Shown: positions 2,042-38,863 of the stretch, piece after piece
Layout: every line of letters starts with the position of its first letter
Position numbering within the stretch: position 1 is the stretch's first letter
From: a virus
Taxonomy: Duplodnaviria > Caudoviricetes
Reading direction: 5' to 3' (one strand)
DNA: 64,000 nt
IMG/VR virus record: IMGVR_UViG_3300031414_000021
Location: 7,790 to 71,789 of that record
Translations under genes and position numbers: made by a program
The notes under the pieces: model-generated
What the model was told of the DNA's origin: nothing
The model's input: only the letters and a program-made list of their open reading frames with translations
The model's database searches: none

Positions 2042-2482
2042 TTATAGCTTCCTCAGCTTCTTGCGCTTGTCTGGGTTGGCACGTTCAGGACGTTTAATCT
2101 GATTGGCAGACTTGCGTGCCTGAGCAATGCGGCGTTTGAGATCTTCGCGCTGACGCTTGTTGCTGTCGTTGTCCTGATCGGTACCTTCAAGTTTCTTCAA
2201 ACGGTCAAGCTGTTCAACCATTCGATCAATTTGTGCAGCACGTCCCAGCTTTTGCTGGTGGACACGCACAGCATCTTGTTGAACCATGCGGCTACGTTGT
2301 GCTTGTCTCATCTTCTTTCTGGCAGGAGCAGGGTCACGCCCTTTTGCCTGTGCATCGCTTACATCTTTTCTGGCTTCTGTTTCATTGCGCTTAGCATTTT
2401 GGAGATCGTTTTTGCTGTTCTCCAATGCCTTCTTTTGATTCTCAGTCATCTTTGAATCACTGAGACTGATAAGAATTTCCAT
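2042..2482 (-). CDS. basic coiled-coil protein with N-terminal ISLS motif (MEILISLS)
   Basis: ATG 2482 after GGAG; K/R/Q-rich 146 aa. Confidence 0.75.
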   Translation of the reverse strand: MEILISLSDSKMTENQKKALENSKNDLQNAKRNETEARKDVSDAQAKGRDPAPARKKMRQAQRSRMVQQDAVRVHQQKLGRAAQIDRMVEQLDRLKKLEGTDQDNDSNKRQREDLKRRIAQARKSANQIKRPERANPDKRKKLRKL

Positions 2483-2493
2483 ACGTGCTCCAA

Positions 2494-2531
2494 AAGAAAA
2501 GGGGATGAGCCACGCTTGGTGAGTCATCCCC
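2494..2531 (-). terminator. intrinsic terminator
   Basis: GGGGATGA...TCATCCCC stem followed by a T-rich tract on the minus strand. Confidence 0.65.
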
Positions 2532-2631
2532 TATTGGTCAAGGTGCGCTATACACCCGGCCTTCTGGCCTACCATATTTGATAACCCTGCTGTGGTCACA
2601 GGGAGATAGGGATCACCTCCAAACGCACTAC

Positions 2632-3093
2632 TCATGCAGATGCTGTGTGCCATGCCAAATGCCTTCGAACAAATCGTTTAACATCTGGCTCGACGCCAAT
2701 CTCACGGTAATAGTTTATAAGCTCTTGCTCACTACGGAACCACAGCAAGTCTTTGCCCAGAAAGGGAATGACAATATACTGGTGGCGGCCCAGCACGTTA
2801 ACGCTGAGGTAGGTATCCCCGTTGTACTGATTATTAGCGATGGGTAATACTGACATTATCTCACGAAAGTCTGGAGCTGACACTAGGCTTTTTGTGCCTA
2901 TGCTCCACACTGCACCATTTTGTCCGTCATGTTTTATAATCACAGGTCCCATGCAAGATACAAACCGCGCGACTTCTTGGCCGTTAACGCGTTGTGCACC
3001 AAACATAAAGCGTGCTAGATTCTTGAGATCAGAAGAAGTGAACGGATGCTTAACTGTGCAGCGGTCTTTACTTAAACTAAGTAGACCGGACAT
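2632..3093 (-). CDS. hypothetical protein (MSGLLSLS..., ISLS-like start)
   Basis: ORF track 2632..3126; second ATG at 3093. Confidence 0.65.
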   Translation of the reverse strand: MSGLLSLSKDRCTVKHPFTSSDLKNLARFMFGAQRVNGQEVARFVSCMGPVIIKHDGQNGAVWSIGTKSLVSAPDFREIMSVLPIANNQYNGDTYLSVNVLGRHQYIVIPFLGKDLLWFRSEQELINYYREIGVEPDVKRFVRRHLAWHTASA

Positions 3094-3204
3094 ATACAAC
3101 CCCTTGTTGGCTTGCAGCCTCATCACTATACGACTAAATTAGCAACAGGACTGAGTTTCGTGAATGGAAACAGAAAAGGGAAGGCTTGCGCCCTCCCCTT
3201 CAAA

Positions 3205-4512
3205 TTAGTCCCGAGACTTGGTCTTCTTTTTCTTCTTCTTCTTTTCAGATTTATCTGCTTTGGCGTCTTCAGGCATGGACAAGGTGCTCATCTTGCCTTC
3301 ATTGAGATCTGCCATCAGGGTCATGACCTTGGACTCAATCATGATCTCTGCTGGAATGCTGGTGGTGTTAAACCCAATCTCAGATTCAGCCAGTGCAGTT
3401 TGCAGATAGATCAAACGCACAGGGTTAACGTTGATCTTGTTCTGCTTGGCCATGTTGAGGAACATCTTGAGGCCAGCCGTCTGCCACTTGTTCGTCTCAG
3501 CCATGTGACCGATGATGCCGTGAATAACCCAACGCGCTTTCATCACAATGCCACGCGGGTTGTTTGCCTCACGAATAAACTGGACGACACTGATAAGGTC
3601 CATATCGAGATACGCACCAATCATCTGAACTGCTTTAGCTTCCATTTCGATTTCTGGATCAGCTGAGGCAAGTTCATTGACCAATGCCTTATCAAACTTC
3701 TCACCGCCAACTACAGACGAGTAGATCGTTTGCAACATGCCGATTGCACCACGCATCTGTCCACCAGCATACTCTGCCACTGACTTGATCGCTTCTTCTG
3801 CACGTTCACGCGACTTGTCTTTCTTAGGCATGATGCCTTCTGTTTCAGCAATCTCGGTCAGACGCTTGGCGATAACATCGAGTTTGATTGGCTGAATAGG
3901 AAGGTTGGTAGCACGACTGACGATAGTCGGCTTCATCTTCTCAGGGTTGGTTGTGACAAAGATCCACACAGTGTGCTCTGGCGGTTCTTCTGTTGTCACA
4001 AGGAACTTGGACTCTGCCTGAGGACTCATCAAGTGTGCTTCGTCGAGAATGTACACACGACGTTTGAACATCGGACTGAGTTCAGCACTATCAATGATCT
4101 TCTGGCTGCCGTCTACTTTACCCCAATCGCCACCCATGTCGTAGCTCAGGATATCTGGATGCGCGTCTTTGCCCATGTCAGCCATCTTACAGCTACGGCA
4201 TTTACCACAGGCGGAGAACGTGTCACAGTTGATGTACTTGGCCACAAGCCGTGCAAACGTTGTCTTACCAGAACCATAATGACCAGTAACAAGAATGGTC
4301 GCAGGCACGATACCGCTCTTGGTCCAGCCTCGGAAGATCTTAACGATGTGGTCTTGACCCACGTAATCTTCAATTACGCGTGGACGGTACTTGGCAGCAA
4401 AGTTCACGGTCTTGAGTTCAACTACCTCACCGCCTTTGCTGCTCTTTTTCTTGCTTGACTTCGGCTCGTCATCACTCGCGCCAAAGCTCCGCTGTTTCTT
4501 GTCTTTTGCCAT
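3205..4512 (-). CDS. dnaX: DNA polymerase III gamma/tau (DnaX)-like clamp loader subunit
   Basis: Walker A GHYGSGKTT, Zn motif C..CGKCRSC, ILDEAH Walker B, EEPP..WIFVTT, TIVSR arginine finger; poly-K C-terminal tail. Confidence 0.9.
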   Translation of the reverse strand: MAKDKKQRSFGASDDEPKSSKKKSSKGGEVVELKTVNFAAKYRPRVIEDYVGQDHIVKIFRGWTKSGIVPATILVTGHYGSGKTTFARLVAKYINCDTFSACGKCRSCKMADMGKDAHPDILSYDMGGDWGKVDGSQKIIDSAELSPMFKRRVYILDEAHLMSPQAESKFLVTTEEPPEHTVWIFVTTNPEKMKPTIVSRATNLPIQPIKLDVIAKRLTEIAETEGIMPKKDKSRERAEEAIKSVAEYAGGQMRGAIGMLQTIYSSVVGGEKFDKALVNELASADPEIEMEAKAVQMIGAYLDMDLISVVQFIREANNPRGIVMKARWVIHGIIGHMAETNKWQTAGLKMFLNMAKQNKINVNPVRLIYLQTALAESEIGFNTTSIPAEIMIESKVMTLMADLNEGKMSTLSMPEDAKADKSEKKKKKKKTKSRD

Positions 4513-4568
4513 TTTTGAAAATACCCTTCGTGAGTTTACTCATATTTACAGATTTTCCATGTCCATAG

Positions 4569-4605
4569 ACAAAAAAAAAGGGACAGACCAAATCCATGGC
4601 TGTCC
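4569..4605 (-). terminator. intrinsic terminator
   Basis: GGGACAG...CTGTCCC stem with a T9 tract on the minus strand. Confidence 0.7.
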
Positions 4606-4687
4606 CGTATATAAAAGCAAAAGCAAAAAAGACACGATGTTCTGGAGGATGAATCCAGAGGGTATTTGCAGTGTGGCATCTACAAAT

Positions 4688-4912
4688 TCAGGCAACGAAA
4701 GCAAGTCCAGGTTCGAAACGTGGAGTCACTTCTGTGTAATCTTGGTAGGCAGCATCGTTCTGCTGGCGGGCACGGTTCACACGTTCAATCTCACGTTGGA
4801 CGTCAGAGTAACTGCGGATATTGCTGCGTACAGTGCGGGTTTCAAATGTGCCATCGTGGCGAACCAAATCCACGACAACACGATAACAACTTCTGTTCAT
4901 GTTAGTCTCCAT
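4688..4912 (-). CDS. hypothetical protein
   Basis: 74-aa ORF with CTGTAAATA 41 nt upstream. Confidence 0.6.
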   Translation of the reverse strand: METNMNRSCYRVVVDLVRHDGTFETRTVRSNIRSYSDVQREIERVNRARQQNDAAYQDYTEVTPRFEPGLAFVA

Positions 4913-4992
4913 TAATAGGGCCTTTCAGCCCTAGAATTATCTGCTGCTTTATATTTACAGAAAGCAGCCACATGTGGAGGCTAAGACAACTC

Positions 4993-5352
4993 TTATTTTT
5001 TAGCCAGTGGATCAGTGACAATCTGAGGCTGAGGAATCTGGTCTGTTTTAGCACCGAGACGCTCAAGCCCTGATTTAATGTCCTGCACCAGGTCATGCAT
5101 TTGCTGAGCAACGCCAGCCACCGCTGTGGCAGATTGCTCTACCGAAGTCAGGCGGCCATCAAGCCCATCAACAACAGAGCTGAGTCGGTCAGTCTGCTGC
5201 TTAACGGTTGCTTCAAGGTCTTTGCGCGAGTTTTCGAAGTCCTGATAATAACGCTGCGATTCGTTGGGATGGCGTTTAGTCCACCACACACCGAATGCAA
5301 ACATACCAATAGCAACGATCACTGTAACGATTAACCAAGCAAGTGTGGTCAT
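4993..5352 (-). CDS. single-pass membrane protein with coiled-coil tail
   Basis: MTTLAWLIVTVIVAIGMFAFGVWW TM segment, then heptad-like region; GGAG upstream. Confidence 0.7.
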   Translation of the reverse strand: MTTLAWLIVTVIVAIGMFAFGVWWTKRHPNESQRYYQDFENSRKDLEATVKQQTDRLSSVVDGLDGRLTSVEQSATAVAGVAQQMHDLVQDIKSGLERLGAKTDQIPQPQIVTDPLAKK

Positions 5353-5379
5353 AAGGAAATCTCCGAGGATAGTTATTAA

Positions 5380-5812
5380 ACCAGCCAAGGAAATATGACC
5401 AGGGCTGGCGTGGTTCAGCCCCATGCGTTGAGGACTCCAATACACACTCGTAAATGCATATTGGAGTCCACCCAGTGAGCAACGCGAATCAATCAACTGG
5501 GCTTTCTCCCCCTCAGTTTAAGGCGCCTAGAGGGATTGCGGCGCCCGAGAGAGTCTTACACCTTTGTGCGCACGGCTGACGACGGCACAGGTAGCACTGT
5601 TGGCATCAGCGTGCAGCGAGGTTGCTCTGCTCAAAACCAGCATGACGGTGCTGGTCAGAGTGTCCGCCTAACGAGGCAGCTCCAGGTTATGCAGGACACG
5701 ACTCTCACTAATAAGCCATCTAACACCGCTGACCGTGAGAGCATGAATTGGTTGCGATGCGCACAATGCACAAAAAGGAGAAGGGCCAGAGGGATTGCTT
5801 CCAGCCCTTCTC
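5380..5812 (-). ncRNA. candidate structured non-coding RNA or long structured leader (family not recognised)
   Basis: No credible ORF; about 9 stems in 430 nt (e.g. 5432-5442/5459-5469, 5471-5476/5496-5501, 5522-5527/5540-5545, 5636-5642/5649-5655, 5660-5665/5694-5699, 5702-5708/5735-5741); G-U extensions form only on the minus strand. Confidence 0.5.
5772..5812 (-). terminator. terminator-like hairpin
   Basis: GAGAAGGGC/GCCCTTCTC 9-bp stem with T5 on the minus strand, downstream of the HAD gene. Confidence 0.6.
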
Positions 5813-5894
5813 AAACGTGCAGAAGAACACTCCGTGTCCTTCATTTGTTACGCTATTTAATTAGTGAAATTTGCCGAAGTGGCTAAGATTTTTC

Positions 5895-8462: not shown

Positions 8463-8636
8463 TCAAATTACGACGGTACGAATGGAATTTACAGAAACGC
8501 TCATATCGAACGTGTTGAGACTTTTCTTAATCTTTTGCAACGCCTCTTCCTGATGTGGAAGGAGTTTAACGCGGACGTTCTGCAACGCGGGTTTGGTCGG
8601 ACGACGGCCTGTTGGACTACGCAGATTTTTGTTCAT
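8463..8636 (-). CDS. small basic hypothetical protein (MNKNLRS...)
   Basis: Internal ATG 8636 overlapping the end of the upstream gene. Confidence 0.5.
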   Translation of the reverse strand: MNKNLRSPTGRRPTKPALQNVRVKLLPHQEEALQKIKKSLNTFDMSVSVNSIRTVVI

Positions 8637-9126
8637 CACTTGCTCCAGTGTATTCAACGCAACTGTTGGGACACGCACCGCACCACGTGCCGGGCTTACA
8701 AGCTGTGGTGTTTGCGGCTTGCTGTGAGTCATCAAGGACAATCACAAGCTGCTCATACCATTGATCGGTATCTTCGAGTGCGAGACAGATGCTGGACAGC
8801 CCTTGATTGGACGCCAGCATCTTATCGATCACAATATATTGAGGACAACCTAACTCGCTTAGAATTTGTCCGACGCCCAAAGCTGGTGGCACCACATAAC
8901 GGTCTACGTCTTGGCGCAGGAAGCGATCATCTTTTGTAATGACTGCAACCTCGAAGCCAGCAAGGTCCATGTTGTTGCAAAACACTGTGTCGAACTGCCG
9001 ATAGGTTGACGAGCTGACACGCACTTCAACAACATTGAGGCCCATGGGATTGTCTCTGATCACCGTACAGTGAAAGCCAATCTCATCAGCCATGGAGCTA
9101 ACCAGCTTATTAATAATGTCGGACAT
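8617..9126 (-). CDS. hypothetical protein with Cys-rich C-terminus
   Basis: ORF track; CKPGTWCGACPNSC. Confidence 0.6.
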   Translation of the reverse strand: MSDIINKLVSSMADEIGFHCTVIRDNPMGLNVVEVRVSSSTYRQFDTVFCNNMDLAGFEVAVITKDDRFLRQDVDRYVVPPALGVGQILSELGCPQYIVIDKMLASNQGLSSICLALEDTDQWYEQLVIVLDDSQQAANTTACKPGTWCGACPNSCVEYTGASDEQKSA

Positions 9127-12875: not shown

Positions 12876-13571
12876 TTACTTTTTACGGCTCACCACTTTG
12901 TTCAGCTTGACGCCAATAGACGTCAGAATGCGCTGGACAGTCTCACCGTCATGATTCTTAATCGCTGCGGCCAGCTGATCACCCTGCTCACGGCTCAATT
13001 CAGGCATGATCAGCTTCAACATTTGGCTGCGTGCTTTAGCTGATGGGCTTTTACCACGAGATTCACTGGCCATCATGGTAGTAGCAGGCACGCCTTCACG
13101 TTCCTCAATGGTAAGCATTTCGCCCTGAGGCACGTTCTTAACAATGCGATGTGGGCCCTCGCCACGCAGGATAGCTGCCAGACGTTCGCCCAAAGGTGCA
13201 AAGATGCGCTCAAATTCAGTTCGCGGTTCCCATTTGTCGTCGTTGCTGTAGGTGAACACCTCTGTATCGCTGAGGTTCTCGCCTTTGTTGCCTAGATTGG
13301 CTGCCTTGCGTGCTAGATCCCGGCCCGTCTGTTGCTCATCATCCGTTTGCTGACCACCACGCACAGCTTTAGGCCCGGGTTCAGCACGGAAATCAGTGTT
13401 ATCCGCGCCAACACGCTTGTCCGTGAGACGAGACTGATCCCCAATGGCTGTAGGCTTAACATCGCGTACCGGATCAGGATTGTTTGTTGAATCGTTGATC
13501 GACTGATTCGGCGTTACATTAGGCGGCTGAGTAACAGAGTTTTCACGGCTCACGCTTAAACGAAGTTTCAT
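12876..13571 (-). CDS. low-complexity protein with ISLS-like start (MKLRLSVS), probable virion protein
   Basis: ATG 13571 after GAGGA; N/P/D/Q-rich N-terminal half. Confidence 0.7.
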   Translation of the reverse strand: MKLRLSVSRENSVTQPPNVTPNQSINDSTNNPDPVRDVKPTAIGDQSRLTDKRVGADNTDFRAEPGPKAVRGGQQTDDEQQTGRDLARKAANLGNKGENLSDTEVFTYSNDDKWEPRTEFERIFAPLGERLAAILRGEGPHRIVKNVPQGEMLTIEEREGVPATTMMASESRGKSPSAKARSQMLKLIMPELSREQGDQLAAAIKNHDGETVQRILTSIGVKLNKVVSRKK

Positions 13572-14683: not shown

Positions 14684-14742
14684 ATCGTTCTCCTCTAGTG
14701 TCTAAAATTAGTGATCTTCTCATTTATCAATCTTCCTAGAGA

Positions 14743-14770
14743 TTCTTATAAACTTTATAATATATAAGAA
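14743..14770 (+). promoter_or_regulatory. inverted repeat enclosing a TATAAT -10 box (candidate RHH operator or left-end hairpin)
   Basis: TTCTTATA-N12-TATAAGAA with TATAAT at 14756-14761. Confidence 0.5.
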
Positions 14771-14788
14771 GACATGAGGAGAATCCCA

Positions 14789-14938
14789 ATGAGTAAAAAA
14801 CCAAGAGCATATAGCATTAGCGACGATGTGTTTAATGCAGTGCGCAAACGCGCCTTGGAAGAGAGCACTAAGAAGGGTAAACGTGTGTCGGAATCGGAGA
14901 TTGTCGAGAAGACACTGAGAAAGGCATTTGTACGATGA
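14789..14938 (+). CDS. 49-aa ribbon-helix-helix-like DNA-binding protein
   Basis: Not in the ORF track. MSKKPRAYSISDDVFNAVRKRALEES...VSESEIVEKTLRKAF; RBS GAGGAG; ATGA overlap with tnpB. Confidence 0.75.
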   Translation: MSKKPRAYSISDDVFNAVRKRALEESTKKGKRVSESEIVEKTLRKAFVR

Positions 14939-16092
14939 TCGGTTTCGTAGGACTTAAAGTCCGACTATATCCAACAGAGGTCCAGAGAAGTCTTATTGAA
15001 AAGACCTTTGGCTGTTGTCGAAAAGTTGCTAATGCTATGCTGGCAAAAAGAATTGAAGTGTGGACAGCGGAGCAGAGGACAATCGCACGAAACAAATTTA
15101 TCAATGCTCTGCCTAACTTGAAGAAAAAGTTTCCATGGCTGAGTGAGGTTGATAGTCAAGCATTACAGCAGGCTATCATCGACATGGATAAAGCCTTTGT
15201 CGCTTTCTTTGACAAGAAAAGTCACTTCCCTCAATTTAAATCCAAGCATGGGCCACAAGCGTTCAGATCAACTCAGCAGAATAGAGTTATGGACGATAGC
15301 CACATAAAAATAGGCAAGACTGGTGTTGTGCGTTGTCGAGGTATGAACGGCAGATACTCTGGTGAGAAAATAAGAAATGTTACTGTGAGTAGAGATTCCT
15401 GTGGACATTATTATGCCTCAGTCCTCATAGAGAAAGATAGAGTCGTGTACGATCATTGCCATGAGTTTATAGCCTGTGGCGTTGATGTGGGTATAGCCAA
15501 ACCTTTAACAATAGGGTGGGAAGACAACGACAATAAACCCAAGTACAGACACATAGGTAATCTTTTTACTAACAGGCTTGCTGTTAAAGAACAGAAACGG
15601 CTTAAATACCAGAAACAACTATCTCGAAAGAAAGTCGGCTCGAATGGATTCAAGCGTGCCAAGGTTAAGCTTGCCAAAGCCTTTGCTTCTGAAAGAAATT
15701 TACGGGACGACTGGCGCAAAAAGACCGCGTTATTTCTGTGCCGTAAGTTTACTCAGATCAATTTTGAAAAACTCAACCTAAGGCGTATGCTTTCAACAAA
15801 GACAGTAGAAGCGGAAAGGATGAAGCAGCATAAAACAAAACTCAATCGAGATTTATCCAGATTGGGATTTGCAGACCTGATCGCATTCTGTGAACAAAAA
15901 GCAGTTCAGTTTGGCGTGACCATTCAGTTAGTAGATCCTAGAAATACGTCACGCCAATGTAGTTGCTGTGGGCATACTGAGAAAGCCAATCGTATATCCC
16001 AAAGCCGTTTCAAGTGCGTTTCTTGCGGGTTTGAGGCAAACGCCGATGCGAATGCGAGCTGGAACATTCTTCGTCGTCCTGCTTTTGGATAA
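14935..16092 (+). CDS. tnpB: RNA-guided endonuclease TnpB (IS200/IS605 OrfB)
   Basis: N-terminal KVRLYPTEVQ; RuvC motifs GVDVG, FEKL and NADANA..NI; Zn ribbon CSCCG..CVSCG. Confidence 0.92.
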   Translation: MIGFVGLKVRLYPTEVQRSLIEKTFGCCRKVANAMLAKRIEVWTAEQRTIARNKFINALPNLKKKFPWLSEVDSQALQQAIIDMDKAFVAFFDKKSHFPQFKSKHGPQAFRSTQQNRVMDDSHIKIGKTGVVRCRGMNGRYSGEKIRNVTVSRDSCGHYYASVLIEKDRVVYDHCHEFIACGVDVGIAKPLTIGWEDNDNKPKYRHIGNLFTNRLAVKEQKRLKYQKQLSRKKVGSNGFKRAKVKLAKAFASERNLRDDWRKKTALFLCRKFTQINFEKLNLRRMLSTKTVEAERMKQHKTKLNRDLSRLGFADLIAFCEQKAVQFGVTIQLVDPRNTSRQCSCCGHTEKANRISQSRFKCVSCGFEANADANASWNILRRPAFG

Positions 16093-16186
16093 GACGTTTT
16101 TGCTCTTGTTCGTGTTCAAACTCCAGGTCTGTTTTTTCACGCACCTCTTTTATTTCTGCGTCAGAAAGACTTATTAAAATCTGCAT
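16010..16186 (-). CDS. ISLS-motif charged protein (MQILISLS); 3' end overlaps tnpB convergently
   Basis: ATG 16186 after GAGG; an in-frame upstream ATG at 16321 also has GAGGAG. Confidence 0.6.
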   Translation of the reverse strand: MQILISLSDAEIKEVREKTDLEFEHEQEQKRLIQKQDDEECSSSHSHRRLPQTRKKRT

Positions 16187-16381
16187 AGAATAAACCTCAT
16201 ATCGGATTATGTACCGTCGGGCTGACGGGAATTTACGCGAGTGGAGTGTGATTTTATCGCACAATGATGCTCGAAACAGTATTAAATTATTGTACGCCAT
16301 TAGTGACATAGATTTTCGCATTCACTCCTCAGAATAGTTATTTCTTGTTGCTTATAACTTTTAGCCCATGCGAGGCATATC

Positions 16382-17271: not shown

Positions 17272-17919
17272 ATGGCGCAGGCTACGAAAAAGAAATTGAA
17301 GAAGCGGCAGGTCAAGCAAGCTGCCGCTATTCCTGTGCGTGTGATTGAGGACACGAGGCCTGTTAATCTGTGTCCCGAATTGGAAAACGATGCGGAACCG
17401 TTTAAGTTCCGAGGCCAGTGTCCAATCACTCGCTGCCAGTATTGCACCACCAGCAGTCCAACAGGATGTATGGCTCTGGACCGCAGAGAGGCTAGTGACC
17501 GCAGCATCAGCCACAAAGAGATCGCCTACTACAAACGTGGTCTGTTTCCTGAACTGCGTGACTACGACCAAAAGCAACTCGACACAAGCATCCGACAGGC
17601 GCAGACGCGAGCCAAAGCCGCAGTCGCCCTGAACTCGTACATTGCCCAGCTTGATGATACGGACTGTGATAAAACGTTCACGTATCAGCAGGGCAAGAAT
17701 CCCTGGATTGATCATGTTCACAACTACATGGCTCAAACGTTTCCTGGGTATCGACCGTGGATGATGGCTTATCTGGATGACGCTACCCGCTTCCGTGCGG
17801 CTGTCAAAAAGATTGCCGATGTTGAGATTCAATTAGGCACAACGCTGCGACTGACACCCAAGAAGTATCTCGGGTTCTGTGCGGCGCTGCGAAAACTTAA
17901 ACAGTCTGGAGAGAAATAA
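17272..17919 (+). CDS. hypothetical protein with Cys cluster
   Basis: CP..CPITRCQYC..GC; RBS GAGG. Confidence 0.7.
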   Translation: MAQATKKKLKKRQVKQAAAIPVRVIEDTRPVNLCPELENDAEPFKFRGQCPITRCQYCTTSSPTGCMALDRREASDRSISHKEIAYYKRGLFPELRDYDQKQLDTSIRQAQTRAKAAVALNSYIAQLDDTDCDKTFTYQQGKNPWIDHVHNYMAQTFPGYRPWMMAYLDDATRFRAAVKKIADVEIQLGTTLRLTPKKYLGFCAALRKLKQSGEK

Positions 17920-19658
17920 TGTCTGAGATTACGCTGGAGCAATACAAGGCGTTGCGTGCTCGTAACGTCCTTAGTGAGCCACCTTTTCTCGTTGTGAACA
18001 AGACCAGTCCTCAAGGCTCAATCAGCTTTGAAGTTGTTGGCGACAACCTGAAATCGAAAACAATCACCTTGCCTGCGTCATACGCCTCAGTTGACCTGAC
18101 GCACGAAGCAAGCATTGAAGCTCTGTTGTCAAGCTCAAGCCTCAAAGCCCTGTTTGATAAAAACATGATCGCAATCATCAACGCCGATGAGATTGTTGTT
18201 CCTACCAAAGTGATTGACCAGCCGACTGTTGATGGCGTCAATGCTGGTGCAACGGTAATCTCTGGCACAACAGTTCCTAACGCGACTGTGATTGTGATGC
18301 AGGGTACCAACACGTGGCGTGGCGCCTCTGATCCATCAGGCCGCTTCTCCATTCCTATCGTCGGTCTGGTCGAGGGTGATTACACCATCTTGATTTCAGC
18401 CGATGGCTATCAGACTCAGGGCTACACGTTTACCGCTGGTGCAGTGGTTGAACAGCCGTATCCTGTTGTCACTGACATTCAAGGTGAATATCGTGGAACG
18501 CATGTTACGGGCACCACAGTTCCTGATGCCGATGTTTCTGCTTCTTTTAACGGCAAATCCTACGACGCCACTTCTGACTCCAACGGCGCGTTTGACATTA
18601 CGACCGACCCTCTGCCATTCGAGCCTGTTACTCTGACCTTTGCCGCTGACGGTTACTCAACGCATGAGCAGACCTTCACACCAGCAGCAATTGAAATGAC
18701 TGATCTCAGTGTGACCAAGCCTAAGTTCTTTGACACAGAGATTGCGGGCAACACAGTTGCTGATGCGGAGAATCTGGTTGTTATGGTAGCGCCGGACGGT
18801 CAGCCTGAGACTCAGGCAGTTGTTGAATCAAACGGTGACTACACTGCAACCATTCAGCCACTGAAAGGCAGTGTTCGCGTTTATGCCAACGCTCCTGGTT
18901 ATCGTCAGACCGAAGTTACTGCCACGCCTGATCGCGGTGAGCTGGGTAATGTGAGTGTTGAATCAGTGTCAGAGACTTCTACTGAACTGCGTGGTAGTGT
19001 GGCGGGCATCAACTCCGCTGCTGGCGCAACGATTGAAGTTGTGACTGAGGCTGGACAGACTAACGGCGTGGTAAATGCTGATGGTTCGTTTGTTGTGCCT
19101 AACGTGAACTTCTCTAAGGGCACCACTGGTACCGCTACAGTCAAGTCCGAGTTCTACGCAGACAAGCAAGTTAAGTTTGATATCCTGCAGGACTTCACAA
19201 CGTTCACCCTCGATCGTGGTGTTGAAGGCAATCCTGTTACCGGTACAACTGAGCCAAGCGCTAACATTGTTCTGACTCAGAGCACCCACACGGCCAGCGG
19301 TACTGCAAACACTGATGGCCAGTATGCTATCGACTTCCCAGAAATCGTGTCTGGTAAAGTTCAGGTAGATCTCAGCAAGCCTGGCTATGCACCTGAGCAA
19401 CTCGAAATCACTGTTGAAATCGAAGCGCGTCTGGTACTCAACCCTGTTGCGGTTGATGCTGAGTCTATCACAGGTCAAGGCACTCCTAACGCAGACGTTA
19501 CCTTTGTCCAGGGTGCAAACACTGCAACTGGTAAAGTCGGCACCGACGGTCAGCTTGACCTGCCTCTGACTTCTAACGTAGTTGCTGGTGAATATACAGT
19601 GACTGCAAGTTTGTCTGGTTATGAAACCAAGACTTTGACTGAAACAGTTTCTGCTTAA
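17919..19658 (+). CDS. Ig-like/carboxypeptidase-regulatory-like repeat protein, probable capsid decoration protein
   Basis: About 6 repeats of G.T.P.A.V...(A/S)D..G.F/Y...GY; T/V/G-rich. Confidence 0.75.
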   Translation: MSEITLEQYKALRARNVLSEPPFLVVNKTSPQGSISFEVVGDNLKSKTITLPASYASVDLTHEASIEALLSSSSLKALFDKNMIAIINADEIVVPTKVIDQPTVDGVNAGATVISGTTVPNATVIVMQGTNTWRGASDPSGRFSIPIVGLVEGDYTILISADGYQTQGYTFTAGAVVEQPYPVVTDIQGEYRGTHVTGTTVPDADVSASFNGKSYDATSDSNGAFDITTDPLPFEPVTLTFAADGYSTHEQTFTPAAIEMTDLSVTKPKFFDTEIAGNTVADAENLVVMVAPDGQPETQAVVESNGDYTATIQPLKGSVRVYANAPGYRQTEVTATPDRGELGNVSVESVSETSTELRGSVAGINSAAGATIEVVTEAGQTNGVVNADGSFVVPNVNFSKGTTGTATVKSEFYADKQVKFDILQDFTTFTLDRGVEGNPVTGTTEPSANIVLTQSTHTASGTANTDGQYAIDFPEIVSGKVQVDLSKPGYAPEQLEITVEIEARLVLNPVAVDAESITGQGTPNADVTFVQGANTATGKVGTDGQLDLPLTSNVVAGEYTVTASLSGYETKTLTETVSA

Positions 19659-21593: not shown

Positions 21594-21651
21594 ACCTGTT
21601 TGCTTAATTTAAACGAGCTACAATAAAGGCTATTTACAGTATCTTAGGAGC

Positions 21652-28855: not shown

Positions 28856-29321
28856 TTCCGCACAAGATAGTGCTGGTGGCTATTGGGAAGTAATGCCCGA
28901 CGGTCCGTCTGAGCAACTCCTGCGACAGATTGCCAGTTCTATCATGGACACTGATGACTTGCATGACCTGCACGTTACTTTGGCTTATGATAACCGCAAC
29001 CCTGTTGTTGCTGCCCAGCCCAATCCTGATGCAGAGTTCACTGCGACTATCAAGGGCGTAGCCTTGTTTGGTGGCGAAGAAGCTGTGCTGGTATTGCTGC
29101 TGGACAGTCCTGACCTGCAGGCTGAGCATGATCGCATCCATGCTTGCGGCTGTGCTAACTTCGACTTCAAACCGTATCAGCCTCATGTGAGTCTCAAGTA
29201 CGGCGCACAACAACGTGATTTGGACTTCCTGCAAGATTGGTTGCTCAAGCCTGGTACTCCTCCTATCGATTTGCTGTTCACTGGTGAGCATCAAGAGCCA
29301 ATCGACAACGACGCTCGATAG
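28824..29321 (+). CDS. 2H phosphoesterase (T4 gp57B/Acb1-like candidate)
   Basis: Two HxT/S motifs, LHVTLAY and PHVSLKY; about 165 aa. Confidence 0.8.
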   Translation: MMKVTLPISNSSAQDSAGGYWEVMPDGPSEQLLRQIASSIMDTDDLHDLHVTLAYDNRNPVVAAQPNPDAEFTATIKGVALFGGEEAVLVLLLDSPDLQAEHDRIHACGCANFDFKPYQPHVSLKYGAQQRDLDFLQDWLLKPGTPPIDLLFTGEHQEPIDNDAR

Positions 29322-29374
29322 TAATATATAACGGTGGCCCTGTGCCGCCGTTTTCACATTCTAGGAGAAATTCT

Positions 29375-29689
29375 ATGGAAATCATTATCAGCCTCAGCAA
29401 CACAGAACTCAATCCACAGCCTGACCTCACGCCTCAAGCCCGTGCTGCTAATGACCGTGCAGAGCGTGAGCGTCTTGAGCAGGAGTATGCGGGTGAAGAT
29501 ATGACTGAGAAAGAGATTCAGAAAAAGGAAGAAGATCTCAAGGAACAGGAAGAGCAGCGCAAGAAAGATGACCCAGCAGCCCTGCCTCGTGAAATGCCCA
29601 AAGACATTGGTCTGCCTAAATTTAAAGAAACAGACACCGCCACCAGCATCACCAATCGACACGACAATTTGCCTGAGGCTAAGATCTAA
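29375..29689 (+). CDS. ISLS-motif charged protein (MEIIISLS)
   Basis: AGGAG RBS; E/K-rich. Confidence 0.75.
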   Translation: MEIIISLSNTELNPQPDLTPQARAANDRAERERLEQEYAGEDMTEKEIQKKEEDLKEQEEQRKKDDPAALPREMPKDIGLPKFKETDTATSITNRHDNLPEAKI

Positions 29690-29739
29690 AACTGTAAATA
29701 TGCTGTAACGAAAAGCACATCGCAGAAGGCATCTGTCGT

Positions 29740-34739: not shown

Positions 34740-34778
34740 TCGTGTGGGCAGGGACGCCCAACCAATAGGAGCAACAAC

Positions 34779-35156
34779 GTGGAAAAGATTTATCCTGACC
34801 AAATCGGTTATCTGGGTACCATCAAGCAAAGCATCGATAAAGGTACTATGCAGCGTGACCTGACCATTCGTACCATGCTTGACATTGAGCAGGCGATTGA
34901 CCTCGGGCCTGATTATAAAGGCAGTAAGGTATTCATCGTCGGCATGAATGTTATGCCTGAGATTGCCGACAAGCTGATCAACCATTTCGATCCCACTGAG
35001 CTGGTTGCTGATATTCAGCGTGGCTATCTCGGTCAAGTGTTGGGTCTGCCTGTGCTGGCCACTGGTGCAGTACCTGCGGACAGTGTGAGCTGTGCCCTGT
35101 TGTTGCCTGATGAAGATATCCATATCATCGGTGCAGTAATGTCTGTAGTAGTCTAA
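34779..35156 (+). CDS. hypothetical protein
   Basis: GTG start after AGGAG. Confidence 0.65.
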   Translation: MEKIYPDQIGYLGTIKQSIDKGTMQRDLTIRTMLDIEQAIDLGPDYKGSKVFIVGMNVMPEIADKLINHFDPTELVADIQRGYLGQVLGLPVLATGAVPADSVSCALLLPDEDIHIIGAVMSVVV

Positions 35157-35203
35157 ATCTAAATCAAACCCGTCTCGATAGCCCAAAGTGGCAGGAGAAT
35201 TTC

Positions 35204-35950
35204 ATGAACGTAATCCAAGTCAAATCAAATGAAGTATTCGAAGGCATGTTACACGGCTACATGCACAAAGGCCTCAACGATGCACAACAGGATCAGCGCA
35301 ATAACCACACGCCGCCTGATGTGATTTATATCAGTACCAGTGATCGCGCCGCTGACTTTGAAGTGCGTGGCATCTTGCGTAAGAGCACGATACCAGACAA
35401 CTTTATCGTGTCCGGCTATTCGAGTTTGCAGGTGCGTGTGCGCGGTCGTTCGCTGAATGATACCTCAGTGTTTATCTCGCCTGAATGTTTGCACGTTGAC
35501 CGTGACTTGCTTACTGGTAGTCTTGCCGAGCTTATTGAGCACCGTACTGCCCACAAGTGGGTTGAAGTATCCACGATGATCGTTCACGGTCCGAGCAGTC
35601 ACTGTATGCCTGAAGGCCTGCAGGAGCGTTTGTATCAGAACTATCTCGGACGTAATCCAATGTTCCATCAGGGCATTGTGGACATGCGTAGTAACACAAC
35701 ACCAGAACAGTTTGCGGAGTTGGTGGCGGAAACTGCCACATTAAAATCACCGCAGCAAAAACGCATTCGCGCACCTCTGTATTTTGGTGATGAGTTTATG
35801 TCACTTGACATGAAGCAGTTCTATAAGGACCTGCTTGTGTTGCACCCGCGTATGCCTGCAGGCGATAGTCTTGTGTTTAGTCCTGCGCTGTTGTTCCGTG
35901 TTTACTCTGCGGCAATCTCCTATCTGCGTCTGCCGATAACAACACTGTAA
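35204..35950 (+). CDS. hypothetical protein
   Basis: AGGAG RBS. Confidence 0.7.
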   Translation: MNVIQVKSNEVFEGMLHGYMHKGLNDAQQDQRNNHTPPDVIYISTSDRAADFEVRGILRKSTIPDNFIVSGYSSLQVRVRGRSLNDTSVFISPECLHVDRDLLTGSLAELIEHRTAHKWVEVSTMIVHGPSSHCMPEGLQERLYQNYLGRNPMFHQGIVDMRSNTTPEQFAELVAETATLKSPQQKRIRAPLYFGDEFMSLDMKQFYKDLLVLHPRMPAGDSLVFSPALLFRVYSAAISYLRLPITTL

Positions 35951-35998
35951 ATATAAGAGGCGATCTTCGGGTCGCCTTTTTACTTTCAAGGACTAGAC

Positions 35999-37039
35999 AT
36001 GTACAAACACAGTTTCAATAGACGTGAGCACCAACGCTTCCAAACAGATCTAAAGCCTCGTATGCGATTGATGTTGGGTCGCTTTGAGGACTACCTCAGC
36101 GATAACAAAGGTAAACTTGATCCGTCAGGTGTGTTGCTGGATGAGTTCGCAGGTTGGGGAGCAAACGCCGCAACTCGCTATCTACTACAGAATCTGAACC
36201 CAACCCTCCTCAGAAACTTTGCTTACATCTATGGTCAATTCTTTTGGCAGTTCTCTAAGTTGGAACTCTGTATTCACGATGAGATAGTTGATCACATTGT
36301 TCAGTCCGATCCGCCTAGCAGAATGCCTGCCGAGATTCTCAGACGACTGCCCTACATCAGCCAGTGGATTCAAGCACCCATCGGCATTGATGTTAGTGAG
36401 TTCCCTAGTGAAAAGGAACTGCACGAGAAACAGCCTACGTTCTATTTTCCTGGCGCGTTTGTCTCTTACTACAGGCTTGACTGTGGTCGTCGCGTTATGA
36501 GCATGACCTGTTCTGTCCTGTGTGGTGCAGCCCAACTGGTTGATCCCGAAAATGCCATGTATGCTTCTGTGATGGTCTATGTTGATGAAGATTTTAACTC
36601 TTCCGGCACAGGTCAAATGAGTGCTGCAATGGTTAACATCAACAGGAGCATCAAAGACAAATCAACGATTGCCATAATCGACGGAGCTGTGGAGCGTTGG
36701 GCGAAGCAAATGTTGAGTTGCATTCTGTTTGTGTGCTCACAGGAAGATACCTTGTTGAAGGGAGGCGCTACTGGCCATCGTTCTACCAAAACAAATCCCA
36801 ACAGCTACAAACTGGCTATTGCAGCCAAACCACGATCGATTGTTGTTGGTCAGGAGTTTGTGGAAGAAGTGAAGAAGTTTGAGCGTGAGCAAGCAGATAG
36901 TGTTTCTTTCTCTGGTCGTCGCGCACACATGCGTCGTGGTCACTACCACAACTTCTGGACTGGACCCAAAGCAGGTCCTAGACGTTTGGTGTGTAAATGG
37001 CTGCCTCCAACGGTAGTCAGAGGAACCTTGGCAGACTAA
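35999..37039 (+). CDS. hypothetical protein with C-terminal HxRRGH..W..W.PP motif
   Basis: RAHMRRGHYHNFWTG...KWLPPTVV; CTGTAAATA upstream. Confidence 0.75.
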   Translation: MYKHSFNRREHQRFQTDLKPRMRLMLGRFEDYLSDNKGKLDPSGVLLDEFAGWGANAATRYLLQNLNPTLLRNFAYIYGQFFWQFSKLELCIHDEIVDHIVQSDPPSRMPAEILRRLPYISQWIQAPIGIDVSEFPSEKELHEKQPTFYFPGAFVSYYRLDCGRRVMSMTCSVLCGAAQLVDPENAMYASVMVYVDEDFNSSGTGQMSAAMVNINRSIKDKSTIAIIDGAVERWAKQMLSCILFVCSQEDTLLKGGATGHRSTKTNPNSYKLAIAAKPRSIVVGQEFVEEVKKFEREQADSVSFSGRRAHMRRGHYHNFWTGPKAGPRRLVCKWLPPTVVRGTLAD

Positions 37040-37116
37040 GAATAATCTTAGACCTTTTCTCTAATTTGTAGAGCAGGCAAGAAGTGCCGGCATACTATTA
37101 ATTGGGGATTACCTTT

Positions 37117-37386
37117 ATGTGTCAAAGAACTCTGGAACGCCTGCGTTACCATTCGCGTAATGCTAGTTGGATAAACCGAACGCCCGAGCCGCTGTCATTG
37201 AAACGTCATGCTGCTCAGGTAGACTGCGGACAGTTCACAACAGCAGTCAAAGGATGCCGTACGGTTCAACTCTCGCCACACTTAGTCAACTTCTATCAAG
37301 GCCAAGATCTTGTAGGTCAAAGCGTTTGGCATCAAAGTCCTGAAGGCGACACTGAACTACAATTCCGTCTTCTCGCAGCACACTAA
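37117..37386 (+). CDS. hypothetical protein
   Basis: ORF track; followed by a terminator-like stem. Confidence 0.5.
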   Translation: MCQRTLERLRYHSRNASWINRTPEPLSLKRHAAQVDCGQFTTAVKGCRTVQLSPHLVNFYQGQDLVGQSVWHQSPEGDTELQFRLLAAH

Positions 37387-37502
37387 TAAAAACAACACAC
37401 AGCAACCTGATAAGGGCTGCCAGAGACATTGTGCTTTGGCGCCCTTTTCTCGTTTTGACGATAATTTTTGCCTACGATAAGACACGAGTATATGGAGCCC
37501 AG

Positions 37503-38159
37503 ATGGAAATCATGATTTCGTTGTCGTTCAAGCAAATAGAGCCGCCAATCGTTTCATACGATCCACAAAAGGCGCCACACGTTAACGACAACAGCAAGCC
37601 TGGCCAGGTGTTTGACCTGCACACGTTGCAGCAAATGAGCTATCTGGACATGAAGAAGGTCAGAGGTGATGCAGGCGCAAAGTACGCTAAGGTAATTGCG
37701 CAGTGGCTAAATGGACAACGTAACATCGAGGTCAAGTTCCGCGTTTCACGACGCAGCAAGATATCGATCGAGGTTAAGAACACCAAGCAGCTTGCAGCAC
37801 GTTACACAGAGGTCTATCTCCTGAGTCCAGAAAAGACTAAATCGAAAGATTGGGAATTGATAGGCACTGGGCCTCACGGCAATGAGAACGTTGTGCAGCT
37901 TGGTGGTCGTATGCAACCTGATGTGTTGTATGCAACGGCACGCAGTATGCTGGGCGCTCACCTGCCTACAGAAGAATGGCCAGGTGACAGCACCCGAGAG
38001 CAAGTAATCGCCAAGTTTGATAAGCAGCGCAAAGAACATCGCACTGTTCCTGACCGCGCTTACAAGTATGTCAACAACAACGAAACCCAATTGATCACCA
38101 TGATGCAAGATGGCATGAGCATTGATGAGATTGTGGCTTGGGTATTAAACCAATACTGA
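37503..38159 (+). CDS. ISLS-motif protein (MEIMISLS)
   Basis: GGAG RBS before ATG 37503. Confidence 0.75.
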   Translation: MEIMISLSFKQIEPPIVSYDPQKAPHVNDNSKPGQVFDLHTLQQMSYLDMKKVRGDAGAKYAKVIAQWLNGQRNIEVKFRVSRRSKISIEVKNTKQLAARYTEVYLLSPEKTKSKDWELIGTGPHGNENVVQLGGRMQPDVLYATARSMLGAHLPTEEWPGDSTREQVIAKFDKQRKEHRTVPDRAYKYVNNNETQLITMMQDGMSIDEIVAWVLNQY

Positions 38160-38167
38160 GGAATCCT

Positions 38168-38863
38168 ATGAGTATCATTTCTATCTCGGCCACAAAAGCC
38201 CAAAAAGATGGCGCCAAGTATCTGTTCGGCACTAAGGGTGAAAGCATCCTTGCTGTGCTGGAAGCCCTGTCGAAAGCCAAAGAGCTGCGTAGCTCACACC
38301 TGAATGGCCTGATCCTTATGCTGAAAGATGCAGAAGATGACGAGCTGATCGCGTTCAAAAACAGCGCTGGTGGCAAGCGTACCATTGAAGCTGCCAAGCT
38401 GTTGGCAACTGCAAAGACTTTGGGCACCAGCCTTCAGGGCTTGCGTAAGGTCAAAGTGCCAAGCAAGTGGATTCAAGATCACGACGATGCAAAAGCTGCT
38501 GGCGCCACTGAGACCAAGACTCATAAGGCTACTGGCAAAGGCACTCGTCCCCAGAAAGCAGAGCAGGTCGCTAATCCGCAGGCACCTGAGCCTGAAACTG
38601 TTGCTCCTAAATCGACTCCTAATACTGGTAAGTTCAAGTATTACTTCACCGTGGATAACGTGAAGCGCGCAGGTCTCGCTGCACGAGTCGATGCAGCCAT
38701 TCAGAAGTTGCATCCAAGTGTCATCAAAGAAGTTAACGGTGACTTTGTGGAATACTCTGTTCGCACCAAGCGCGAACTCAACGAACTTGCTGAGGCAGCA
38801 GGCATCGAGATCAGCGACAAGGGTGTGGCTACTTCCGCCAAATGGTTTAGCTCAAAAAAGTGA
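38168..38863 (+). CDS. protein with ISLS-like start (MSIISISA)
   Basis: GAGGA RBS; K/A/T-rich linker. Confidence 0.75.
   Translation: MSIISISATKAQKDGAKYLFGTKGESILAVLEALSKAKELRSSHLNGLILMLKDAEDDELIAFKNSAGGKRTIEAAKLLATAKTLGTSLQGLRKVKVPSKWIQDHDDAKAAGATETKTHKATGKGTRPQKAEQVANPQAPEPETVAPKSTPNTGKFKYYFTVDNVKRAGLAARVDAAIQKLHPSVIKEVNGDFVEYSVRTKRELNELAEAAGIEISDKGVATSAKWFSSKK

What the first reader, a model, noticed from the sequence alone, without database searches (positions are those of the whole stretch)
2042..38863. Shared N-terminal M-x-I-x-I-S-L-S signal on many unrelated, dispersed proteins: candidate capsid-targeting or maturation code
Seen: MEILISLS (2482-), MQILISLS (16186-), MEIFVSLS (23458+, TTG start), MEIIISLS (29375+) and MEIMISLS (37503+), plus variants MKLRLSVS (13571-), MSIISISA (38168+) and MSGLLSLS (3093-). 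The DNA codons differ between copies, so the conservation is at protein level. Beyond residue 8 the proteins show no evident similarity, and most are highly charged or disordered (basic coiled coil, Asp-rich, Glu/Lys-rich). Established: T4 internal proteins carry a short N-terminal capsid targeting sequence that the prohead protease removes. Inference: this is a phage-wide sorting or protease tag for a family of internal/ejected or scaffold proteins. It could be a portable tag for loading cargo into jumbo capsids.
Basis: partly seen in the sequence, partly recalled or inferred. Interest (0 to 1): 0.78.

Follow-up and report, generated by a model that had tools for sequence, protein, structure and literature searches.

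The report
Shared N-terminal address tag, jumbo phage
About eight to sixteen otherwise unrelated proteins of this Erwinia jumbo phage and its relatives begin with the same eight-residue peptide (M-E-I-x-V/I-S-L-S), which is most likely an address label that loads them into the phage head for delivery into the host, although no packaging has yet been measured.

Summary
The window is part of an Erwinia jumbo phage, about 85% identical to pEa_SNUABM_5, in the PaBG/Yoloswag/Y3 "hairy myovirus" group. Five genes start with M-[EQ]-I-x-[IV]-S-L-S, against 0.01 expected by chance. A matrix built only from five other genomes scores these five at 19-25 bits, the best five of all six-frame positions in the window.

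The tag (M-[EKQ]-I-φ-[VI]-S-L-S-[A]) heads 6-10 genes per genome in five genera. It falls almost only on start codons. Serine codons switch between AGY and TCN, so selection acts on the peptide. At least 15 unrelated families carry it.

Cargo includes T4-internal-protein-like charged disordered proteins, a Nudix hydrolase whose PaBG homologues lack the extension, and a polyvalent-type ADP-ribosyltransferase. It also includes KMPT-N proteins and, with a shorter form, genes beside the prohead protease and the capsid gene, plus an SNF2 helicase found in PaBG virions.

I read it as a capsid-loading tag that works like the T4 capsid targeting sequence (confidence 0.5). It is not a member of that family: the sequence is unrelated and no protease site follows it. 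The main rival is a docking peptide for another hub such as the sliding clamp. Earlier notes of this scan report similar leader tags in other jumbo phages.

The parts
2042..2482 (-). Family C: 146-aa very basic (pI 10.6) coiled-coil-like protein starting MEILISLS. Tag codons 2459-2482.
   Evidence: PSSM 20.4 bits. Orthologues in six genomes; the tag is the most conserved block (M1, L4-S8 invariant at 36-63% overall identity). phrog_28362, function unknown.
16010..16186 (-). 58-aa ORF starting MQILISLS. Tag codons 16163-16186. It overlaps the 3' end of a TnpB gene on the other strand and lies inside an insertion.
   Evidence: PSSM 19.1 bits. The segment 14690-16298 is absent from pEa_SNUABM_5 and from other phage records.
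23458..23979 (+). Family B: 173-aa Asp/Glu-rich (36% D+E, pI 4.1) protein with a TTG start, MEIFVSLS. Tag codons 23458-23481.
   Evidence: PSSM 25.0 bits. Orthologues carry the tag in SNUABM_5, Yoloswag, Alexandra and Y3, with a degenerate MHVLISLG in JA11. phrog_30142, function unknown.
29375..29689 (+). Family D: 104-aa acidic protein starting MEIIISLS, just upstream of the sigma-factor gene. Tag codons 29375-29398.
   Evidence: PSSM 22.4 bits. Orthologues start MEIIISLS, MQIVFSLS, MEMIVSLS, MEMLISLS and MKIYVSLS, MEMLVSLS in two further genomes.
37503..38159 (+). Family F: 218-aa protein starting MEIMISLS. Tag codons 37503-37526. A disordered N-terminal third is followed by a folded C-terminal part.
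   Evidence: PSSM 21.5 bits. All 8 database homologues (62-88% identity) keep the tag. AlphaFold model: residues 1-58 have pLDDT below 50, mean 54.7.
2632..3093 (-). Family G: 153-aa globular protein with a decayed tag, MSGLLSLSK.
   Evidence: Orthologues in Alexandra, Y3, JA11 and 10 further genomes start MEIFVSLSK or MQIVFSLSK. AlphaFold mean pLDDT 78.8, with residues 4-8 modelled as a low-confidence strand. No PDB fold match.
12876..13571 (-). Family H: 231-aa protein with a variant tag, MKLRLSVS.
   Evidence: PSSM 7.3 bits. Orthologues start MKLRLSLS (SNUABM_5), MKLKINLSES (Yoloswag), MKVKISLNSE (Alexandra) and MRVMISLNSE (Y3). phrog_31583.
38168..38863 (+). Family K: 231-aa basic protein with a tag one residue short, MSIISISA. 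It lies directly downstream of family F.
   Evidence: The Yoloswag orthologue starts MSIISLSA (14.0 bits) and the SNUABM_5 orthologue MSIISISA (10.7 bits).

Best explanation
The peptide M-[E/K/Q]-I-φ-[V/I]-S-L-S-(A) is a portable N-terminal address tag. It sits on a flexible linker in front of many unrelated cargo proteins.

The cargo is of two kinds. Some are highly charged, disordered polypeptides like the internal proteins of T4. Others are enzymes or effector modules: a polyvalent-type ADP-ribosyltransferase, a Nudix hydrolase, KMPT-N proteins and an SNF2 helicase.

Most likely the tag docks as a short extended strand, with Met1 retained, onto a component of the assembling prohead. Candidates are the scaffold or core proteins, or the N-terminal propeptide region of the capsid protein. 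The cargo is thereby enclosed, stays in the head beside the DNA and is ejected into the host at infection.

Shown: the tag exists, is specific to N-termini, is selected as a peptide, is appended to independent folds, and is conserved across five genera. Also shown are the domain identities of some cargo.

Inferred: the docking partner, packaging and ejection. Unlike the T4 capsid targeting sequence, the tag does not seem to end in a head-protease cleavage site, so it may stay on the cargo.
For: Specificity to N-termini:
- Strict motif: 5 observed against 0.01 expected, all at starts.
- PSSM hits of 15 bits or more: 39 at start codons of ORFs of at least 50 aa, against 14 elsewhere, over six whole genomes. 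Two of the 14 are offset N-termini. Most of the rest lie in short non-coding frames, at the shuffle level of 1.4 per genome.
- In called genes: 34 N-terminal against 2 internal in about 400,000 positions.

Selection on the peptide:
- AGY/TCN serine codon switching and six Leu codons.
- Residue 2 is always large (E 20, K 8, Q 6 of 38), so Met1 should be kept (established methionine aminopeptidase rule).

Portability:
- At least 15 BLAST-unrelated families carry the tag.
- The Nudix domain has a 15-aa tag-plus-linker extension in Erwinia phages. Both PaBG Nudix homologues start directly at the domain.
- Within families the tag is as conserved as the body or more so.
- In the family F model, residues 1-58 are disordered.

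Cargo types match known or predicted packaged and injected proteins:
- ART-PolyVal, PF18760, E = 2e-27.
- KMPT-N, PF20294.
- SNF2 helicase, 1937 aa, with a short tag MIISMSK. Its PaBG orthologue gp202 starts MGSLFTLNSLSAA and is band 1 of purified virions (PMC7412058 Table 1).
- PMC5512222 argues that such modules are packaged and injected, as T4 Alt and P1 DarB are.

Links to the virion modules:
- Short-tag genes lie next to the prohead protease (MLLSLS; PaBG MLLSLSLAS), next to the capsid gene (MKSLSGS) and between the tail tube and terminator genes (MLPFFISVSA).
- The N-terminal region of the capsid protein, upstream of a conserved φ-x-E|A site, holds two tag-like segments.

Tagged genes cluster, and their content varies between phages, like the T4 internal-protein locus.
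Against: - No virion proteomics or N-terminal data exist for any tagged protein of the window. The Y3 virion mass-spectrometry paper is not held.
- Most tagged genes lie among replication and recombination genes, not in the head module.
- The tag is not followed by the T4-type φ-x-E site inferred for the capsid protein, so one defining part of the T4 mechanism is missing.
- PaBG shares the head genes at 44-47% identity yet lacks the full tag.
- The tag-like segments in the capsid protein score only about 6 bits, roughly a 3% chance event.
- The short forms (M-x-S-L-S-A) are weak motifs.
Confidence: 0.5

Rival explanations
1. The tag is a docking peptide for a non-capsid hub inside the infected cell. 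The hub could be the phage sliding clamp or another replication or recombination scaffold. This would resemble the beta-clamp-binding hexapeptide QLxLxL (N-terminal in Hda), or the shared gp45-binding ends of T4 gp43, gp33 and gp55. The tag would recruit many factors to replicating phage DNA or to a replication compartment.
For: - Most tagged genes sit among replication and recombination genes, next to DnaX, SbcC, primase, sigma factor, SSB and UvsX.
- The register [E/Q/K]-I-φ-[V/I]-S-L formally fits Q-L-x-L-x-L (motif from my own knowledge of Dalrymple 2001 and Wijffels 2004).
- The group encodes a Pol III beta-like clamp: PaBG_00207 (weak PF02768 match; PMC7412058).
- Some DNA enzymes carry tag-like starts: the SNF2 helicase, and the ligase of SNUABM_5 and JA11 only.
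Against: - The invariant residues are Ser6 and Ser8 (38 of 38) and Leu7. Gln is at position 2 in only 6 of 38 tags.
- The DNA polymerase, primase, DnaB, clamp loader, SSB, UvsX and sigma factor do not start with the tag.
- An ADP-ribosyltransferase, KMPT-N proteins and genes in the tail and head modules do carry it.
- The tagged SNF2 helicase is a virion protein in PaBG (PMC7412058).
Confidence: 0.2
2. The tag is a recognition signal for N-terminal processing or controlled turnover, unrelated to packaging. One option is a small-x-small (S-L-S|A) cleavage site for a phage peptidase. Another is a degron read by a host AAA+ protease that limits the lifetime of early proteins.
For: - Ser at positions -3 and -1 with Ala at +1 (17 of 38) resembles the small-x-small rule of signal-peptidase-type enzymes (the rule is established knowledge).
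- The K-variants (M-K-I-L-I...) resemble the ClpX N-motif 2, Met-basic-φ-φ-φ (my own knowledge, Flynn 2003).
- A fused protein keeps a relic tag, LVSESAKAPSY, at the junction of two modules, as a polyprotein site would.
Against: - Cutting off eight residues serves no evident purpose unless it is coupled to sorting.
- Position 2 is acidic in most tags (E in 20 of 38), unlike the ClpX motif.
- Position 9 is Ala in fewer than half of the tags.
- High-scoring internal copies are nearly absent from real proteins (2 in about 400,000 positions), which is unlike a general cleavage site.
Confidence: 0.12
3. There is no peptide function. The resemblance would be chance, a remnant of one duplicated gene, or a nucleotide-level translation-initiation element.
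For: - Several small charged families (B, C, D and the 58-aa ORF) could in principle be diverged paralogues.
- The ribosome-binding-site contexts look alike.
Against: - 0.01 expected against 5 observed, and a 600- to 1000-fold excess at start codons.
- Codons vary freely at the conserved residues.
- The tag sits on independent folds: Nudix, ART, SNF2 and KMPT-N.
- PaBG Nudix homologues lack it.
- It is kept across five genera at 36-63% body identity.
Confidence: 0.03

Closest known systems
Capsid targeting sequence (CTS) of phage T4 internal proteins IPI, IPII, IPIII and of Alt (Mullaney & Black 1996; cited in PMC13326640, PMC5512222)
   Same: - A peptide of 8-10 residues at the very N-terminus, shared by otherwise unrelated proteins.
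- The cargo includes small, highly charged proteins and an ADP-ribosyltransferase.
- The cargo genes are clustered and vary between related phages.
- The genes lie outside the main head-gene block.
   Different: - There is no sequence similarity to MKTYQEFIAE (from my own knowledge).
- The tag does not end in the L/I-x-E site of the head protease, and no such site is enriched after it.
- Far more families carry it: at least 15, against about 4-6 in T4.
- Packaging has not been demonstrated.
Phage P1 Dar antirestriction proteins (DarB, an SNF2-type helicase-methylase, packaged via its N-terminal region) and the polyvalent proteins of Iyer et al. 2017 (PMC5512222)
   Same: - An SNF2 helicase of about 220 kDa that is a virion component in PaBG.
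- ART-PolyVal and KMPT-N domains among the tagged proteins.
- Effector modules that occur fused in some genomes and separate in others.
   Different: - Here the modules are mostly separate small genes, each with its own short tag, rather than one giant multidomain protein.
- No methylase domain was detected in the helicase.
- No common short tag is described for the Dar or polyvalent proteins.
Encapsulin cargo-loading peptides (such as ...LTVGSLRR, SLGIGSLK), which bind the inner face of an HK97-fold shell
   Same: A short extended peptide with hydrophobic residues followed by a small-Ser-Leu core. It is joined to diverse cargo by a flexible linker. The container has an HK97-fold shell. This resemblance is drawn from memory and is a lead only.
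   Different: Encapsulin peptides are usually C-terminal. No binding site on the capsid protein has been tested here. A tailed phage additionally has a scaffold, a protease and a portal as possible receptors.
Beta-clamp-binding motifs (QL[SD]LF, QLxLxL) and the T4 gp45-binding terminal peptides
   Same: A short terminal peptide shared by unrelated proteins, with a similar spacing of hydrophobic residues. The location can be N-terminal, as in Hda.
   Different: The invariant residues differ: two serines here, against Gln and Phe/Leu in the clamp motifs. The canonical clamp clients of the phage lack the tag.

Membership tests
T4-type capsid targeting sequence (CTS) | A short peptide (about 10 aa) at the extreme N-terminus, shared by otherwise unrelated proteins | tested here: met
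T4-type capsid targeting sequence (CTS) | Sequence related to the T4 CTS (MKTYQEFIAE) | tested here: not met
   The consensus M-E-I-φ-V-S-L-S-A has no similarity. The T4 sequence is recalled from the literature.
T4-type capsid targeting sequence (CTS) | The tag ends in the prohead-protease site (L/I-x-E) and is removed | tested here: not met
   A φ-x-E motif occurs in residues 9-40 of 45% of tagged proteins, against 36% in shuffles, and it is not positionally conserved. Removal itself cannot be tested here.
T4-type capsid targeting sequence (CTS) | A gp21-type prohead protease with φ-x-E specificity in the same phage | tested here: inconclusive
   A head maturation protease is present (phrog_18299). 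It has no Pfam or PDB sequence match. The capsid protein keeps an invariant [LVFI]-x-E|A at about residue 90, consistent with the roughly 20% mass loss of the PaBG capsid protein (PMC7412058).
T4-type capsid targeting sequence (CTS) | Tagged proteins are present inside virions, and the tag suffices to package foreign proteins | not testable with these tools
   The only indirect datum is PaBG gp202, orthologue of the short-tag SNF2 helicase, found in virions (PMC7412058).
Beta-clamp-binding motif | Consensus QL[SD]LF or QLxLxL with a conserved Gln | tested here: inconclusive
   The hydrophobic register fits, but Gln is present in only 6 of 38 tags and Glu in 20 of 38. The invariant residues are Ser6 and Ser8.
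Beta-clamp-binding motif | Carried by the canonical clamp clients (replicative polymerase, clamp-loader subunit, ligase) | tested here: not met
   No PSSM hit at the termini of the polymerase, DnaX, primase or DnaB. The ligase is tag-like only in SNUABM_5 and JA11.
Sec/Tat signal peptide or lipoprotein signal | A positively charged n-region, a hydrophobic h-region of at least 7 residues, and a lipobox Cys for lipoproteins | tested here: not met
   There are only 3-4 hydrophobic residues, residue 2 is mostly Glu, there is no Cys, and the cargo is highly charged.
Polyvalent-protein effector modules (Iyer et al. 2017) | Domains of the polyvalent-protein repertoire | tested here: met
   This holds for part of the cargo only. 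ART-PolyVal, E = 2e-27, in a JA11 tagged gene. KMPT-N in three proteins. SNF2 plus Helicase_C. LPD3 only at E = 0.049, below threshold. The window's five proteins have no domain hit.

The most novel reading that the evidence does not exclude
A tailed phage uses an uncleaved, encapsulin-like cargo-loading peptide. The eight-residue tag would copy a strand of the capsid protein's own N-terminal propeptide (E-L-A-L-S-x-S / E-L-V-H-S-x-S-A). It would thereby dock more than 15 unrelated cargo families onto the scaffold or shell of the prohead. The result would be a modular, exchangeable arsenal of ejected proteins and a ready-made minimal tag for loading foreign proteins into a jumbo capsid.
Probability: 0.15. 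Interest if true: 0.8.

Novelty: new variant of a known kind. Interest (0 to 1): 0.6.

Why it matters
If the tag is a capsid-loading signal, it identifies in one stroke the likely ejected-protein arsenal of a whole group of cultured jumbo phages. Their hosts are the plant pathogens Erwinia amylovora and Dickeya solani, and these phages are candidates for biocontrol.

It would also show that the T4 principle of one short leader on many cargos has arisen with a different sequence and without the coupled protease site. And it would give an eight-residue handle for loading foreign proteins into a large capsid.

If the tag instead docks proteins on a replication hub, it would define a new hub-and-client system in phage replication.

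Either way the claim can be tested directly on available isolates with routine virion mass spectrometry.

Tried and rejected
- **Promoters.** I looked for a shared promoter upstream of tagged and structural genes and found no consistent motif. CTGTAAAT is enriched in the window (16 against 1.9) but does not precede tagged genes.
- **Protease site.** A φ-x-E site after the tag is not enriched.
- **Function of cargo.** Pfam, PHROGs and NCBIfam give no domain for the five window proteins or for families A, G, H and J. The ESM Atlas gave nothing for F.
- **Structure models.** AlphaFold of G gave a confident small alpha/beta fold with no PDB match. AlphaFold of F was poor.
- **Family J.** A profile comparison with the JA11 ART was not significant (E = 0.055).
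- **Head protease and head-module ATPase.** Neither has a sequence match in PDB.
- **DNA ligase.** The tag-like start of the SNUABM_5 ligase (MKVQLSLSAS) is absent from most orthologues, so I did not count it.
- **Window ORF 8617-9126.** The SNUABM_5 orthologue looked tag-like, but the window copy does not.
- **Literature.** The Y3 virion-proteome paper is not held. I found no paper describing this motif.

Full report
**Identity of the window.** The window is 64 kb of a 71.8-kb contig. Its GC content is 47-50%. It matches Erwinia phage pEa_SNUABM_5 (267 kb, Rivsvirus) at about 85% nucleotide identity. It matches Yoloswag, Alexandra and further Erwinia jumbo phages more weakly. These phages belong to the PaBG/Lu11/Y3/JA11 "hairy myovirus" group (PMC6143709, PMC7412058). 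The matching part of SNUABM_5 encodes a helicase, a primase, exonucleases, a sigma factor, SSB and UvsX. It also encodes a tail-spike-associated hydrolase and an adhesin, and the window has an Ig-repeat protein. The region is therefore not purely "early".

**The observation.** Each sits on an ATG or TTG behind a GGAG/GAGG site.
- The strict pattern [start]-[EQ]-I-[ILFM]-[IV]-S-L-S occurs five times in six frames of the contig, against 0.01 in shuffles, and always at a start codon.
- I fetched five whole relatives (SNUABM_5, Yoloswag, Alexandra, Y3, JA11) and PaBG. Each of the five Erwinia/Dickeya genomes has 6-10 such starts.
- From 38 of them the consensus is M - E20/K8/Q6 - I25 - L/F/I/V - V20/I13 - S38 - L33 - S38 - A17.
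- A matrix built without the window's sequences scores the window's five tags at 19-25 bits. The next start-codon candidate scores 10.
- Over the six other whole genomes, 39 hits of 15 bits or more are at start codons of ORFs of at least 50 aa, and 14 are elsewhere. Two of the 14 are N-termini offset by one or two residues. Most of the rest lie in short non-coding frames, at the rate seen in shuffled DNA (1.4 per genome).
- In called genes there are 34 N-terminal against 2 internal hits in about 400,000 positions.

**Peptide or nucleotide signal.** Ser6 is AGY 32 times and TCN 12 times. Ser8 is 22 and 22. Leu7 uses all six codons. The constraint is on the peptide. Residue 2 is always a large residue, so the initiator Met should be retained (established methionine aminopeptidase specificity).

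**A portable module.** BLAST clustering and tblastn give at least 15 unrelated families that carry the full tag in at least one genome.
- In the window: C (basic coiled coil, 2482-), B (Asp-rich, 23458+), D (acidic, 29375+), F (37503+) and the 58-aa ORF (16186-).
- The three "variants" are real members whose tag has decayed or is shortened in this lineage. G (3093-) is MEIFVSLSK or MQIVFSLSK in more than 12 other genomes. K (38168+) is MSIISLSA in Yoloswag. H (13571-) is MKLRLSLS in SNUABM_5.
- Outside the window the tag heads a Nudix hydrolase (PF00293). Its two PaBG homologues start directly at the Nudix fold and lack the 15-residue tag-plus-linker.
- It also heads an ART-PolyVal ADP-ribosyltransferase in JA11 (E = 2e-27).
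- It heads KMPT-N proteins.
- It heads a 600-725-aa family annotated "SbcD", a label with no support from any library.
- Several further orphan families carry it as well.
- In SNUABM_5, Yoloswag and the window's own contig, two modules are fused. They are separate tagged genes in JA11 and Y3. The junction keeps a relic, LVSESAKAPSY, against MKIFISLSAKTPSY.
- Within families the tag is conserved as well as, or better than, the body.
- In the AlphaFold model of F, the first 58 residues are disordered. In G the tag region is a low-confidence edge strand.

**Links to the virion.**
- Shorter forms (φ-S-φ-S-A/K right after Met) head four genes of interest. One lies beside the prohead protease: MLLSLS in SNUABM_5, (VK)MLISLS in Yoloswag, MLLSLSLAS in PaBG. 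One lies beside the capsid gene (MKSLSGS). One is a KMPT-N gene between the tail tube and terminator genes (MLPFFISVSA). The fourth is the 1937-aa SNF2 helicase (MIISMSK; JA11 MQIFSTSA).
- The PaBG orthologue of that helicase is PaBG_00202, which starts MGSLFTLNSLSAA. It is band 1 of the virion proteome (PMC7412058, Table 1).
- SNF2 helicases of this kind (P1 DarB), ARTs of the polyvalent type and T4 Alt are known or predicted to be packaged and injected (PMC5512222).
- The capsid protein has an invariant [LVFI]-x-E|A near residue 90. That is a T4-like maturation site and fits the roughly 20% mass loss reported for PaBG.
- The part of the capsid protein upstream of this site holds two weak tag-like segments (about 6 bits). 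This is a lead, not a result.

**What does not fit the T4 model.**
- The tag has no similarity to the T4 CTS.
- It does not end in φ-x-E, and such a site is not enriched in the next 30 residues (45% against 36%).
- Most tagged genes are among replication genes.
- PaBG, with a related head module (44-47% identity), lacks the full tag.
- No proteomic evidence exists for the window's five proteins, and the Y3 virion paper is not held.

**Rivals.**
- The strongest rival is a docking peptide for a non-capsid hub such as the phage beta-clamp (PaBG_00207). The hydrophobic register fits QLxLxL and Hda carries its motif N-terminally. Against this, the invariant residues are the two serines, the canonical clamp clients lack the tag, and an ART, KMPT-N proteins and head- and tail-module genes carry it.
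- A processing or degron signal is possible (small-x-small S-L-S|A). Eight residues cut off without sorting makes little sense, and internal copies are nearly absent.
- Chance, paralogy and RNA-level explanations are excluded.

**Verdict.** This is a peptide-level, N-terminus-specific, portable tag, conserved in five genera and in three metagenomic genomes. The capsid-targeting reading is the best-supported explanation (0.5) but rests on analogy and indirect links. The tag works like the T4 CTS but is not a member of that family. I found no description of this motif in the papers searched. Earlier notes of this same scan report comparable leader tags in other jumbo phages. Those are unchecked AI notes, not independent evidence.

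Noticed in passing
window 14690-16298: A TnpB gene (14935-16092, +) and the tagged 58-aa ORF (16186-16010, -) form an insertion of about 1.6 kb. It is absent from pEa_SNUABM_5 and from all other phage records. Homology resumes at window 16299. The short ORF may be the stump of a tagged gene cut by the insertion.
   Followed up: partly
SNUABM_5 101892-103007 (L021:17893-19008, -) and orthologues; not in the window: The capsid protein has an invariant [LVFI]-x-E|A at about residue 88-90 in six genomes, including PaBG. This is probably the maturation cleavage site. Two weak tag-like segments (ELALSxSTGE, GELVHSxSA) lie upstream of it.
   Followed up: partly
own contig left of the window (contig 4641, - strand); SNUABM_5 163782-165710: A 642-aa protein (MAQVVVSVAAS... 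or MTQIVVSVSA...) is a fusion of two modules that are separate tagged genes in JA11 and Y3. A relic tag (LVSESAKAPSY in Yoloswag) sits at the junction.
   Followed up: partly
window ~2500-2540 (-) and ~29320-29350 (+): A GC-rich hairpin with a T-run ends only 15-20 nt before the start codons of tagged genes C and D. The same layout precedes SNUABM5_00140 and 00145. It could be a terminator of the upstream unit or a 5' stabilising stem.
   Followed up: no
window, 16 sites (e.g. 1985-1992 -, 4544-4551 -, 21632-21639 -, 29692-29699 +, 35945-35952 +): CTGTAAAT occurs 16 times against 1.9 expected. It mostly lies 30-60 nt upstream of gene starts (DnaX, primase, sigma factor) but not upstream of tagged genes. 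Two copies lie directly after the stops of tagged genes C and D.
   Followed up: partly
SNUABM_5 103834-105936 (L021:19835-21937, -): A 700-aa protein that PHROGs labels 'ATPase' (phrog_20988) is encoded between the capsid/scaffold-like genes and the prohead protease. It has no Pfam or PDB sequence match. It could be a candidate loading factor, but this was not examined further.
   Followed up: no
window 17919-19658 (+): A 579-aa protein has four CarboxypepD_reg-like and Big_6 Ig-like repeats. It is probably a surface or virion-associated protein lying inside the 'replication' region.
   Followed up: no
SNUABM_5 158731-160908 (L020:18732-20909, -): The GenBank label 'putative exonuclease SbcD' for tag family A has no support in Pfam, PHROGs or NCBIfam. 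The neighbouring 349-aa gene is the more likely SbcD.
   Followed up: partly
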